DNA from: Candidatus Magasanikiibacteriota bacterium
GTDB lineage: Bacteria > Patescibacteriota > Patescibacteriia > Magasanikbacterales > GWA2-37-8
DNA length: 64,000 bases
Reading direction: 5' to 3'
NCBI GenBank assembly: GCA_963840935.1
Contig: CAWJAS010000001.1
Location: 45,902 to 109,901, forward strand
Part shown: positions 60,569-62,463 of the stretch, in pieces
Layout: each line of letters begins with the position of its first letter
How positions within the stretch are numbered: the first letter of the stretch is position 1
The notes under the pieces: model-generated
What the model saw: the letters and a program-made list of their open reading frames with translations, nothing else
Databases searched by the model: none
What the model was told of the DNA's origin: nothing
Program-made: the position numbers and the translations under genes

Positions 60569-60653
60569 GGAGAGGTGTCTGAGTGGTTGAAGGTGCCGCT
60601 CTCGAAAAGCGGTGTCCCGCAAGGGACCGTGGGTTCAAATCCCACCCTCTCCG
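60569..60653 (+). tRNA. tRNA-Ser(CGA)
   Basis: 85 nt; anticodon loop CTCGAAA; long variable arm; T-arm GTGGGTTCAAATCCCAC. Confidence 0.85.
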
Positions 60654-62219
60654 CAGAGCGGTATTGGGCGCCGAATTTATCAGGGCGCGCCACCCGATTT
60701 TCGCCGAAAAACTGAATTTTTTGCCTTTCAAAATAAAGTTCGAGCCGATGTTTTTCAAAAATGTTGAAATTTCGGCCGGCGAATTTTGCGAAAGGAGAAT
60801 TTTGGCTTGGCTAACGAGAAACAGCATCTGCCGCATCGGTTCGAGCCAATTATTTCCCTCGCGTTCAAAATCTTTTACCTTCTGCTGGATTTCCAACTTC
60901 TCATTGAGAAGTTTTTGTTTTTTATGCTGGTATTCGTCCGGGTCGATGCCTCGGCCTTCAATCAGCAAATCCAGCAGCTTTTCCATTTTAGCTTCAACAA
61001 CTTTTTTGTCGGTGGAAAGATTTTGAACGAGTGTTTGGGTTTTCTCTTGGGCCTCGGCTTTTTCTCCATCAATCCACGCAGTCATCTGCTTAACGTCTTC
61101 CTCGGGCAAAGAAACTTTTTGAATGACTTTTGTCATCTGTTCAGCAAGTTCTTCTTCTCGGATATATTTTTCCTCGCAAGTTTGCTTTTTCTTGGTACAG
61201 CGGTAGTAGTTATGGCCCTTCTGCTTTTCCGCCGTTATCCGGCATCCGCAGGCCCCGCAAGTCATTAAGCCGGAAAAAGCAAACGCGTGCTTTCTCTTTC
61301 TCTGCTTCTTGCCTCGGTTGGCCATAACTTGTTGAACAGAATCAAAAAGTTTCTTGGAAATAATTGGCTCGTACGATCCCTCGTACATTTCACCGCTGAA
61401 GTAGAATACGCCGTAGTAAAAAGGGTTGCGGAGTATTCGCTGGACACTGGAAACGGATAAATGCTTTCCTTTGTAGGATATTTGGGCGTCGGCAAAAAAC
61501 TGCTCGACCTGCTTTAGGGTATTTTCACCCCTAGCGTACATTTCAAACGCTTTTCTGACCGCTCCGGCTTTCTCTGTATCCACATCAATGCCTCGGGTCT
61601 TGGGGTTGTTCAAATACCCTAAAGGGGCAATATTCGGCCTTATGCCTTTGCGCAGTTTTTGCCGGTGCCCTCGTTTAATGTTCTCACTCAAGTTATCCAC
61701 ATAGTACTTACTCTGCCCAAAGGCTATGGAAAGCATGAATTTGCCCTGTGGCGTGTTTTCAAACCAGAGAGTAGGGAATTTAAGGTCTTTAATCTTTCCG
61801 GTGTCCAGCGAATAGATTATCCGTCCGCCATCGATGCTGTTTCTCGCCAGCCGATCGGCGTGCCAAGCCAAAATTCCATCGGCTTCGCCGGCCTCAATAC
61901 GGGACAACATTTCGCCGAACACAGTTCGGCCGGGTTCTTTGGCGGTTTTTGCCTCGGTGAACGAGGCGGCGATTTCAAGTTTTTCCCGAACGGCGAACTC
62001 GCGCAACTCGGTGAGTTGCGCTTCGATGCTCATGACCTGCCGGTCTTCGCTATCCGTGGATTTGCGCGCGTATACGAAATATCTCATGGGTGAACGAGTT
62101 AAAAATGAAAAGCCCGCTTTCGGTGTCCGCCGCGGCGGACAAAGGCAAAAAATTCAGTTTTTCGGCGAAAATCGGGTGGCGCGCCCTGATAAATTCGGCG
62201 CCCAATACCGCTCTGCGGA
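60649..62219. mobile_element. serine-recombinase element bounded by perfect 72-75 bp terminal inverted repeats, inserted at the 3' end of tRNA-Ser(CGA)
   Basis: 60654-60728 equals the reverse complement of 62140-62214; both ends also carry CTCCG matching the tRNA 3' end; additional partial inverted-repeat fragments at 60729-60756 and 62104-62130 / 62355-62415. Confidence 0.65.
60729..62087 (-). CDS. large serine recombinase (resolvase catalytic domain, recombinase domain, Zn ribbon, coiled-coil); 3' end uncertain because the frame stays open through the inverted repeat into the tRNAs
   Basis: N-terminal [19 protein letters not shown] (catalytic Ser), recombinase domain, CxxC...C zinc ribbon (TCGACGCR...YYRC), long coiled-coil. 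Confidence 0.8.
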
Positions 62220-62463
62220 GTGTTTACGAAAATATTCGAACGGATTTTGCCGTGGGGCCCTCACCGGCGGGCAAAAAGGAAGGGGTTTAAGGGGAGGGAA
62301 TTTTTGCCCGCCGCCCTCTTCCGCCCTTTTCGGATTCAAAAACCGCCAAAGAACCCGTTAAAAACATCGGCTCGAACTTTATTTTGGCCGAAAGCGGGCT
62401 TTTCATTTTTTAGCGCTTTTGCGCTCGACGCACCGTCGGCCAAAGCCTATCATATAACAAATT

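What the first reader, a model, noticed from the sequence alone, without database searches (positions are those of the whole stretch)
60649..62420. Large serine recombinase gene bracketed by perfect 72-75 bp inverted repeats directly at the 3' end of tRNA-Ser(CGA), with nested partial repeat copies
60654-60728 is the exact reverse complement of 62140-62214, and both ends include CTCCG matching the last bases of the tRNA. The 453+ aa recombinase has no in-frame stop before the left repeat; the frame runs on through the repeat and both Ser tRNAs, which is why the ORF track shows 595 aa. On the right side, extra inverted segments (62104-62130 versus 62390-62415, and 62355-62385 versus 60729-60756) and a GTCCGCCGCGGCGGAC palindrome suggest the element landed inside another palindromic repeat. 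Long perfect terminal inverted repeats are atypical for known large-serine-recombinase transposons, which usually have short ends. The alternative is an invertible segment whose recombinase gene lies inside the switch.
Basis: seen in the sequence. Interest (0 to 1): 0.75.

Follow-up and report, generated by a model that had tools for sequence, protein, structure and literature searches.

The report
tRNA-targeting serine-integrase element, inverted attP copy
The 80-base inverted repeat is real and marks one end of a small mobile element, widespread in uncultured bacteria, that inserts at the tip of tRNA genes and carries a second, flipped copy of its own attachment site beside its integrase gene; this layout appears undescribed and only part of how it works is understood.

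Summary
In detail: 60649-60728 is the exact reverse complement of 62141-62220 (80 nt), and three further exact inverted pairs exist. The large serine recombinase (LSR) ORF has no stop of its own and runs through both tRNA-Ser genes.

It is neither an artefact nor a one-off. About 40 complete loci from many phyla, at 49-84% protein identity, share the layout, next to 12 kinds of tRNA.

The repeats are not transposon ends. The left arm is the element side of attL: the last 6 nt of the tRNA plus the integrase tail-coding DNA. The right arm belongs to an internal, inverted, full copy of attP. Its outer arm (62221-62336) mimics the tRNA T-loop but sits 5 bp further from the crossover. Relatives show that the element continues past the finding, through swappable cargo, to a true attR. 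In this window attR lies beyond base 64000.

Read across attP, the integrase gains a conserved tail and a stop; integration replaces that tail. Rare variant loci show the internal site has recombined, so the "invertible cassette" idea is partly supported.

The exact short copies of integrase segments beside the sites remain unexplained. I found no published description. I rate it a new variant of a known kind.

The parts
60569..60654 (+). tRNA-Ser(CGA). This is the target (attB left arm). The T-loop GTTCAAAT is at 60633-60640, 16 nt before the shared core.
   Evidence: ARAGORN; Rfam tRNA at 52 bits. In relatives the integrase 3' end always abuts a tRNA 3' end.
60649..60654 (+). Core CTCCGC: the last nt of the tRNA, shared with the internal site. 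Inferred crossover region.
   Evidence: The repeat includes 6 nt of the tRNA in 26 of 31 loci, and these nt change with the tRNA type.
60655..60728 (+). Element arm of attL ('a-bar'). It is the antisense of the integrase C-terminal tail-coding region.
   Evidence: length classes are multiples of 3.
60649..62087 (-). Large serine recombinase gene (conserved 479 aa). As integrated, the ORF runs on to 60300.
60729..60755 (-). Segment b of int (nt 1332-1358, KNIGSNFIL), copied at 62360-62386.
61931..61951 (-). Segment d of int (nt 137-156, AKTAKEPG), copied at 62337-62357.
62101..62123 (-). Segment c (int 5' leader, 13 nt before the ATG), copied at 62388-62410.
62125..62140 (.). GC-rich palindrome between the internal repeat arm and c.
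   Evidence: A hairpin of different sequence sits at the same place in L001, L026 and L072.
62141..62220 (+). Inverted copy of the attL arm plus core (a + core').
62221..62336 (+). U': the outer arm of the internal inverted attP copy. It holds the T-loop mimic ATTCGAAC at 62234-62241, 21 nt from the core, and an internal GC hairpin. With 62141-62220 it forms the + strand ORF 62090-62290, which ends ...SVYENIRTDFAVGPSPAGKKEGV*.
62337..62410 (+). Mosaic of exact sense copies of int segments d, b and c ('ghost' pieces). This is the end of DNA-level conservation between loci.
62449..62491 (.). Divergent promoter-like pair: minus strand TTGATA-17-TATGAT pointing toward int, plus strand TTGACA-17-TATATT pointing toward the cargo.
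   Evidence: consensus match only.
62534..63434 (+). Probable cargo ORFs of 80 aa and 215 aa, with no family match. attR is not reached before base 64000.
   Evidence: position by analogy.

Best explanation
The finding covers the integrase module of a small integrative element. The element uses a large serine recombinase to insert at the 3' end of tRNA genes.

Written in the direction of the tRNA, the family layout is:
tRNA | core, a-bar, b-bar, int (reverse), c-bar, hairpin, a, core', U', d b c, cargo, e, U | core, host.

1. tRNA-core-a-bar is attL.
2. U-core-host is attR. It is seen in relatives and lies beyond this window.
3. The excised circle would therefore carry attP = U-core-a-bar.
4. 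The right arm of the reported repeat belongs to a second, inverted, complete copy of attP (a-core'-U', about 190 nt) just upstream of int.

U imitates the tRNA T-loop, but 5 bp further from the crossover. This is the attP-versus-attB half-site offset known for serine integrases.

The inferred crossover lies at the first two of the six shared bases. The element then supplies the discriminator base and CCA, so the tRNA stays intact. Lineages with different cores hit different tRNAs.

The int reading frame crosses attP. Across attP it encodes a conserved tail (W-R-x-[IVL]-[LFY]-x-x-[AIV]-R-T-[EDH]-F) followed by a stop. After integration this tail is replaced by antisense-tRNA sequence, and here no stop follows for 116 codons.

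I infer that attL remains a usable target, for two reasons: only the tRNA arm and the core are conserved at targets, and attL sites are re-used by incoming elements. If so, the integrase could recombine attL with the inverted internal attP. That would flip its own gene without changing either site.

Steps shown: the architecture, its conservation, the site mimicry and the variant products. Steps inferred: the crossover position, that the tail is translated, and that flipping is integrase-catalysed.
For: Same layout in relatives:
- L001 (84% aa identity) and L002-4 (70%) share it, as do about 40 complete loci among 80 from a scan that found relatives in 468 species genomes.
- These include a complete genome, AP024682.1.
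- Targets are Ser, Gln, Asn, Glu, Leu, Phe, Gly, Trp, Arg, Lys, Asp and His tRNAs.
- The internal copy carries the matching NNNCCA.

Site structure:
- The repeat takes in 6 nt of the tRNA in 26 of 31 loci.
- The distance from GTTCR to the core is 18 nt in the tRNA (25 of 31) against 23 nt in U (23 of 30).

attR and cargo:
- A far copy of U+core, direct with respect to the tRNA, lies 0.9-2.9 kb away in about 32 loci.
- DNA homology between loci stops at the mosaic edge.
- The cargo is unrelated between loci. Its GC content (0.31-0.55) follows neither the integrase (0.42 +/- 0.017) nor the host.

Integrase tail:
- A conserved tail and a stop appear only when the gene is read across attP.
- Of 88 classifiable homologues, 53 have a tRNA-antisense tail, about 8 a U-type tail, and 2 a short b-c end.

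Variant and tandem loci:
- Tandem arrays show attL being re-used as a target (L110, L114, L072).
- The internal site has been used in recombination: L185 has d-bar-U-core-a-bar-b-bar followed by reversed int, and L083/L077 have b-bar d-bar U core at the far end.
- L026 and P0054 are what an int flip followed by deletion between the two b copies would give.

In this window:
- GC is 45-55% in the module against about 35% in the flanks.
- The neighbouring tRNA-Ser(TGA) ends in TTCCGC rather than CTCCGC, so it lacks the element's first two core bases.
Against: 1. No excised circle or empty site was found. The circle-junction pattern scan returned nothing.
2. attR is not visible in this window, nor within 3-4 kb in the closest relative L001. 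The extent of this particular copy is therefore inferred.
3. Orientation is almost uniform: 34 of about 36 internal sites are in the standard arrangement. L185 has mismatched b copies, so it may be a tandem of two elements rather than a flip.
4. Canonical serine integrases do not recombine attL with attP without a directionality factor.
5. The single cassette junction in L089 (U-CCGCCA-AAGAAT...) fits a crossover further to the right than the one I infer.
6. The tail conservation overlaps the DNA motif that mimics the T-loop. The codon-position signal is modest: entropy 0.95 / 0.69 / 1.12 for positions 1, 2 and 3.
7. The model does not explain the exact ghost copies of integrase segments.
Confidence: 0.58

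Rival explanations
1. Hin/Gin-style phase switch. The 80-nt repeats would exist mainly so that the segment carrying the recombinase gene flips. In one orientation int is antisense to tRNA read-through and lacks its tail (off). In the other it sits downstream of the tRNA promoter with its full tail (on). Mobility would be secondary.
For: - The int cassette is exactly bracketed by perfect inverted repeats in every locus.
- The flipped orientation would restore a conserved tail and a stop.
- L026/P0054 and L185 have int in the other orientation relative to the tRNA or the mosaic.
- Mismatches between the arms show no RNA-type bias, which points to maintenance at the DNA level.
Against: - The protein is a roughly 480-aa integrase-type LSR, not a small invertase.
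- The repeat arms are att-site halves with tRNA-specific cores.
- The elements are clearly mobile between tRNAs and between phyla, and they have attR and cargo.
- One orientation dominates assemblies.
Confidence: 0.2
2. The repeats and ghost pieces would act as RNA. The int leader (c-bar, b-bar, d-bar, U, core, a-bar) would pair with the 5' UTR, the coding region and the 3' tail of the same mRNA, silencing integrase in the integrated state. The identity would then be kept by selection for base pairing.
For: - A promoter-like site at 62477-62449 on the minus strand would put all antisense pieces into the int leader.
- All ghost pieces are antisense to int on the int strand.
- The pieces co-vary with the gene across loci.
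Against: - There is no G:U-type bias. In arm a, mismatches of all types occur (56 of 3989). In b, c, d and e there are only 3 mismatches in 2996 nt, which is stricter than RNA helices usually are.
- Piece e lies on the far side of the cargo, outside any int transcript of the integrated form.
- The pairings are not nested.
- The promoter is only a consensus match.
Confidence: 0.12
3. Historical debris. An integrase cassette with long inverted ends once inserted into the integrase gene of another copy, between nt 119 and 137. The repeats and fragments would be leftovers with no present function.
For: - Around the inferred circle the ghost pieces lie in gene order (e, d, b, c) on the opposite strand, interrupted by the repeat-bounded cassette.
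- Other LSR elements do insert inside LSR genes (P0003, P0093, P0118).
Against: - Fragments of 20-38 nt remain about 99.9% identical to the resident gene in lineages that have diverged to 49% protein identity, and at fixed positions.
- Neutral debris would have decayed.
Confidence: 0.08
4. Assembly artefact: a fold-back chimera of a metagenome assembly.
For: Many contigs of relatives end inside the upstream repeat arm. This shows that assemblers struggle with the repeat.
Against: - The same architecture, with locus-specific sequences, appears in dozens of independent assemblies made with different assemblers, in a complete genome, and in 120 metagenome contigs.
- The repeat boundary falls at a biologically meaningful position.
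Confidence: 0.01

Closest known systems
Phage-type large serine integrases (A118/LI, Bxb1, phiC31, TP901-1)
   Same: - Same domain set (Resolvase, Recombinase, zinc ribbon), and a weak sequence match to the A118 integrase C-terminal domain.
- Short att sites without long direct repeats.
- The outer motif sits 5 bp further out in the attP-type arm than in the attB-type arm. The comparison with the published half-site offset is from memory.
   Different: - At most 27% identity to any phage LSR, and far below the cut-offs of curated families.
- The target is the tRNA 3' end, recognised through a T-loop mimic.
- The int ORF crosses attP.
- A second, inverted attP copy flanks int.
- Only one arm of the target looks conserved.
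- No directionality factor was identified.
Hin/Gin/Cin/Pin DNA invertase systems
   Same: A serine recombinase gene lies inside (Hin) or next to a segment bounded by inverted recombination sites. This is a possible flip-flop with unchanged sites.
   Different: Those are small recombinases of about 190 aa with 26-bp sites and a Fis-dependent enhancer, and they are not mobile by themselves. Here the enzyme is a roughly 480-aa integrase, the arms are 80-200 nt and are att halves, and the unit moves between tRNA genes.
LSR transposons and cassettes (Tn4451 TnpX, Tn5397 TndX, SCCmec CcrAB, XisF)
   Same: Small elements moved by LSRs through a circular intermediate. The best NCBIfam scores are to CcrB and XisF.
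   Different: The scores are 97 and 95 bits against cut-offs of 900 and 375. No long inverted internal att copy is known for those elements (from memory). Their targets also differ.
Integrases whose gene spans attP (SSV1-type archaeal integrases; integration-dependent immunity of mycobacteriophages)
   Same: Integration changes the product of a gene that crosses attP. Here it changes the integrase C-terminal tail.
   Different: Those are tyrosine recombinases. Here only the last roughly 12-25 codons are swapped, and a spare inverted copy of the tail-coding DNA is kept upstream.
tRNA-linked islands with swappable cargo (tycheposons; integrons as an analogy)
   Same: tRNA-anchored, tandem accretion, and highly variable small cargo between conserved ends. 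A minority of tycheposons carry LSRs (10.1101/2020.12.28.424599).
   Different: Tycheposons mostly use tyrosine integrases and carry replication modules. Integrons use IntI and folded attC sites. Here cargo boundaries are copies of integrase gene segments.

Membership tests
Large serine recombinase (integrase-type) | N-terminal resolvase catalytic domain, followed by a recombinase domain and a zinc-ribbon domain | tested here: met
   PF00239 E 4e-20 (residues 4-148), PF07508 E 1e-15 (172-258), PF13408 E 2e-10 (271-322).
Large serine recombinase (integrase-type) | attP-type half-site carries its outer recognition motif about 5 bp further from the centre than the attB-type half-site | tested here: met
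   The distance from GTTCR to the core is 18 nt in tRNAs (25 of 31) and 23 nt in U (23 of 30). In the window it is 16 against 21. That the motif is actually bound by the zinc-ribbon domain is not tested.
Large serine recombinase (integrase-type) | Crossover at a 2-bp central dinucleotide identical in both partners | not testable with these tools
   The sharp 6-nt boundary of identity suggests the first two shared bases. The L089 junction suggests a position further right.
Large serine recombinase (integrase-type) | Membership of a curated named family (CcrA/B, XisF, etc.) | tested here: not met
   Best NCBIfam scores are 97 bits (cut-off 900) and 95 bits (cut-off 375).
Hin/Gin DNA invertase switch | Small serine recombinase (about 190 aa) with a C-terminal HTH | tested here: not met
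   A 479-aa conserved protein with LSR domains.
Hin/Gin DNA invertase switch | Both orientations of the segment coexist | tested here: inconclusive
   The standard arrangement is seen at 34 internal sites and a flipped-type junction at 1 (L185), which may be a tandem of two elements. L026 and P0054 have int co-oriented with the tRNA. No read-level data are available.
   Conserved element DNA continues 190 nt beyond the right arm. In relatives, cargo and a separate attR follow.
tRNA-targeting integrative element | Sits at the 3' end of an intact tRNA gene and rebuilds that end | tested here: met
   Intact tRNAs are called next to int in the window and in relatives. The element-borne core equals the last nt of the tRNA, including the discriminator and CCA.
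tRNA-targeting integrative element | A second junction (attR) delimits the element | tested here: inconclusive
   Present in about 32 relatives. Not found in the window up to base 64000, nor within 4 kb in L001.
Integron-like cassette platform | Tyrosine IntI integrase with folded attC sites | tested here: not met
   The recombinase is a serine enzyme. Only the variable-cargo behaviour is analogous.

The most novel reading that the evidence does not exclude
The family would be a self-contained, tRNA-anchored gene shuttle. Its serine integrase would work without a directionality factor, because an inverted spare attP lets it flip its own gene. That flip would switch both the promoter context and the protein's C-terminal tail. 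The exact copies of integrase segments next to the sites would be functional nucleic-acid elements, either pairing or secondary recombination sites, that control state changes and cargo exchange. Target choice would be reprogrammed simply by the bases of the core.
Probability: 0.2. Interest if true: 0.8.

Novelty: new variant of a known kind. Interest (0 to 1): 0.66.

Why it matters
1. The family is common. Relatives occur in 468 species-level genomes, from Patescibacteria to Nitrospira, Brocadia, Spirochaetota and Bdellovibrio. Integrases at 60-70% identity cross phylum boundaries. The family may therefore be a major vehicle of gene exchange in uncultured, small-genome bacteria.

2. The target logic is simple: a universal T-loop plus the last few bases of the acceptor end. 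Natural variants already address many tRNAs. That is attractive for programmable serine-integrase tools.

3. An integrase gene that spans attP and keeps an inverted spare copy of the site is a layout I could not find described. It may represent a new way to control the direction of serine recombination.

4. For annotation, these loci break assemblies and yield integrase ORFs with spurious, variable C-termini.

Tried and rejected
- Exact look-ups of the window's integrase and of the 215-aa ORF, to extend the contig beyond base 64000, found nothing. attR of this copy therefore could not be located.
- A metagenome scan for the circle or flipped junction (e-U-core-a-bar-b-bar) returned zero hits.
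- A scan of viral contigs for the U-core motif returned zero hits, so there is no sign that the element is a phage.
- Rfam gives only the tRNAs in 58000-64000.
- No Pfam or NCBIfam family matched the two cargo ORFs.
- I considered that contigs ending upstream of int show population heterogeneity. I rejected this: they end inside the repeat arm, as de Bruijn assemblers do.
- I considered the ghost d-b-c as a small in-frame ORF. It reads [24 protein letters not shown] in the window, but the frame is not kept in L001 or in the other clade (read from the sequences).
- I considered b-c as a pseudo-attB hit by attP. The observed b|a junction has the wrong orientation.
- I considered single-stranded folding that would rebuild attP, in the manner of CTX phage. 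A double-strand-cutting serine enzyme would break the chromosome.
- Cassette arrays joined at U-core-AAGAA were found only once in about 200 loci, so I did not build on them.
- Three literature searches found no description of this architecture.
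Full report
**1. What is in the window**

tRNA-Ser(TGA) lies at 60314-60401 and tRNA-Ser(CGA) at 60569-60654, both on the + strand. A large serine recombinase (LSR) gene lies on the minus strand with its ATG at 62087. It has Resolvase, Recombinase and zinc-ribbon domains. The ORF has no stop until 60300, giving 595 aa, and reads antisense through both tRNAs.

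The repeat finder gives four exact inverted pairs:
- a: 60649-60728 / 62141-62220, 80 nt
- b: 60729-60755 / 62360-62386, 27 nt
- c: 62101-62123 / 62388-62410, 23 nt
- d: 61931-61951 / 62337-62357, 21 nt

The 74-nt core of pair a occurs only twice in 64 kb, with none expected by chance. The region 60400-62450 has 45-55% G+C against about 35% around it.

**2. It is a conserved architecture, not an artefact**

The protein has thousands of homologues.

The contigs encoding the closest ones were examined first: L001 at 84% identity and L002-L004 at 70%. They show the same picture:
- int is flanked by an 80-87-nt perfect inverted repeat.
- The int 3' end abuts the 3' end of a tRNA-Ser.
- The repeat includes the last 6 nt of that tRNA.
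- The same three short inverted pairs sit at the same positions, with locus-specific sequences that match within each locus.

A scan of one genome per species found relatives in 468 genomes. The best 80 loci (49-71% identity) come mostly from Patescibacteria. They also come from Brocadia, Nitrospira, Thermodesulfovibrionales, Omnitrophota, Marinimicrobia, Margulisiibacteriota, Spirochaetota, Actinomycetota, Ignavibacteriota and Bdellovibrio.

In about 40 loci complete enough to judge, the pairs lie at fixed positions relative to the ATG:
- c: about -320 / -30
- b: about -290 / +1345
- d: about -260 / +145
- a: about -100 / +1400, length 62-111 nt

Many contigs stop inside the upstream arm. That is how assemblers behave at inverted repeats, so I do not read it as heterogeneity.

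**3. What the long repeat is**

The tRNA next to int is not always Ser. Gln, Asn, Glu, Leu, Phe, Gly, Trp, Arg, Lys, Asp and His also occur.

In every case the repeat takes in the last nt of that tRNA: 6 nt in 26 of 31 loci. The upstream copy carries the same tRNA-specific bases:
- CCGCCA for Ser
- CAGCCA for Gln
- GAGCCA for Asn
- GCACCA for Leu, Phe, Gly, Lys and Arg
- ACCCCA for His

To the left of these six bases the upstream copy continues into a conserved segment, which I call U (window 62221-62336). U contains GTTCGAAT, the T-loop sequence of tRNAs. The distance from GTTCR to the shared bases is 18 nt in the tRNAs and 23 nt in U. In the window it is 16 and 21.

A 5-bp outward shift of the distal motif is what distinguishes attP from attB half-sites of serine integrases. 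This point rests on established knowledge of the A118/LI integrase work, recalled from memory. I therefore read tRNA-core-a-bar as attL and U-core-a-bar as an attP.

**4. The element is larger than the finding**

DNA similarity between loci ends at the outer edge of the c copy, which is window 62410. However, in about 32 loci a second copy of U plus core lies 0.9-2.9 kb further on. It is 77-133 nt long and 93-100% identical to the internal copy. It is in direct orientation with the tRNA core and is followed by unrelated host DNA. That is attR.

The excised circle would therefore carry attP = U-core-a-bar. The copy next to int is a second, inverted attP of about 190 nt.

Between the mosaic and attR lie 0.6-2.6 kb of cargo, comprising 1-4 genes:
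- A 66-73-aa XRE-type regulator recurs in one clade.
- Otherwise 41 cargo proteins fall into 37 singleton clusters.
- Integrase G+C is 0.42 +/- 0.017 in all hosts.
- Cargo G+C ranges from 0.31 to 0.55 and does not follow the flanks (r = -0.24).

The cargo is therefore a swappable foreign module.

In the window, two unassigned ORFs occupy the cargo position (62534-62776 and 62787-63434). They lie behind a divergent promoter-like pair at 62449-62491. No far U copy exists before base 64000, and attempts to extend the contig failed.

**5. The integrase frame crosses attP**

I joined each int to the sequence it would meet across attP, in the order a, core', U'. This gives a conserved end, W-(R/L/C)-x-[IVL]-[LFY]-x-x-[AIV]-R-T-[EDH]-F, followed by a stop at 491-577 aa. 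In the window it reads ...NTALRSVYENIRTDFAVGPSPAGKKEGV*, the + strand ORF 62090-62290.

In the integrated state the tail is instead antisense tRNA (..WRRGWDSNPR..), with the stop wherever chance puts it (481-595 aa).

Part of the tail conservation is the T-loop mimic read as I-R-T. Synonymous third-position variation and codon-position entropies of 0.95 / 0.69 / 1.12 suggest translation but do not prove it.

Among 88 classifiable homologues:
- 53 end in a tRNA-antisense tail.
- About 8 end in a U-type tail.
- 2 end right after segment b (P0054, P0076).

**6. Evidence on dynamics**

I ran a metagenome scan with the U-core motif of one clade. It returned 120 contigs, and I sorted the junctions:

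| Junction | Count | Reading |
|---|---|---|
| d-bar-U-core-a-bar-hairpin-c-int | 34 | standard internal site |
| e-U-core-host | 31, plus 9 truncated | attR |
| other-U-core-host | 28 | many with a shortened e |

Single examples of the other combinations also occur. L110, L114 and the complete genome L072 hold two elements in tandem at one tRNA, with the older integrase now reading into the newcomer's U. This explains the U-type tails. It also shows that a tRNA-core site stays usable whatever lies to its right. Consistent with that, host DNA to the right of the core is not conserved.

The other variant loci read as follows:
- L185 has the mosaic and U-core-a-bar followed by b-bar and a reversed int.
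- L083 and L077 have b-bar d-bar U core at the far junction, and an int truncated at nt ~85 and fused to cargo.
- L026 and P0054 have tRNA, a-bar, hairpin, c, int, b, c in one direction, with a clean stop (ILA*).

Each of these is what one expects from recombination at the internal attP. In two cases that would be followed by deletion between short repeats that become direct only after such an event. They are rare, and L185 has non-identical b copies, so a tandem origin is possible.

Flipping by the integrase itself is therefore my inference, not a demonstrated step. Because both sites share the same right arm, such a reaction would regenerate both sites. It would need no directionality factor.

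**7. What stays unexplained**

The short copies c, b and d, and in relatives e (int nt ~89-119, joined to the far U), lie around the inferred circle in gene order on the strand opposite to int. It is as if a second integrase gene had been interrupted between nt 119 and 137 by the repeat-bounded cassette and then reduced to four pieces.

They are present down to 49% identity (L079). They differ between loci but match their own gene almost perfectly: 3 mismatches in 2996 nt, against 56 in 3989 for a and 11 in 2629 for U. There is no G:U-type bias.

Decay, RecA-type conversion and ordinary RNA pairing each fit poorly. Four ideas are recorded in the notebook: a cis-antisense leader, secondary integrase sites, short-homology deletions that lock a state, and template-switch correction.

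**8. Comparison with known systems, and novelty**

The enzyme is an LSR by domain content. It is at most 27% identical to phage integrases. It matches A118 integrase only weakly. It scores far below the cut-offs of CcrB and XisF.

It works like a phage-type serine integrase with a tRNA target. It resembles Hin only in having the recombinase inside a repeat-bounded segment. It resembles SSV-type and integration-dependent systems in that integration alters a gene spanning attP. It resembles tycheposons and integrons in tRNA anchoring, tandem accretion and variable cargo (for tycheposons).

Three full-text searches found no description of an LSR element with an inverted internal attP or with integrase-derived ghost segments. 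I classify it as a new variant of a known kind.

**9. Verdict**

- The transposon-with-long-ends reading is wrong.
- The invertible-cassette reading is partly supported.
- The best description is the integrase module and attL of a tRNA-targeting LSR integrative element with a spare inverted attP.

My confidence is about 0.6 in the architecture and site assignments, and about 0.35 in integrase-catalysed flipping.

Noticed in passing
window 59942-60401: The first 73 nt of tRNA-Ser(TGA) are duplicated exactly (59942-60014 = 60312-60384). A GIY-YIG nuclease ORF (60006-60350, PF01541 E 5e-17) lies between the partial and the complete copy. This looks like a GIY-YIG gene inserted at the tRNA T-arm with duplication of the 5' part.
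   Followed up: no
window 60402-60564: A GC-rich scar lies between the two tRNA-Ser genes. It ends with an 18-nt repeat of the tRNA-Ser(TGA) 3' end (60547-60564), preceded by GTCGA-AGCCA. That is a T-loop/acceptor copy with a 5-nt insertion, which gives attP-type spacing. The scar also holds the palindrome GCGAGCCAA-tag-TTTGGCTCGC and an inverted tRNA-3'-end-like stretch on the minus strand. It is probably the integrase-less remnant of a related element.
   Followed up: partly
proteins P0003, P0093, P0118 and about 12 others of 817-932 aa: A different LSR (MKYIAYARKSTDEKDKQVLSIDNQ...) is fused in frame to residues ~120-end of a window-type LSR (..LAFGQSKYY..). This is an LSR element that inserts inside the integrase genes of other elements.
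   Followed up: partly
L089:2500-5219: Two cargo cassettes lie in tandem behind one integrase. The junction reads U-CCGCCA-AAGAATCTG-b-c, so a U-core is fused to the right half of segment d. This was the only such case in about 200 loci.
   Followed up: partly
L107, L116, L118, L119, L131, L134, L137, L155, L169, L174, L186, L195 (upstream of U): One sub-lineage has e shortened to AAAAACTTGAAATTGT, preceded by a conserved hairpin (GAATTGAGTTAtacTTAACTCAATT). The same element end is joined to many different host flanks, which indicates recent spread to many sites.
   Followed up: no
L013+L035, L036+L065, L025+L050, L015+L045: Single genomes carry two elements of different lineages at different tRNAs.
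   Followed up: no
window 62337-62413: In this copy the ghost d, b and c pieces happen to form one open frame ([24 protein letters not shown]), in the same frame as the attP-crossing tail ORF. This is not conserved in L001 or in the other clade, so it is probably coincidence (read from the sequences).
   Followed up: yes
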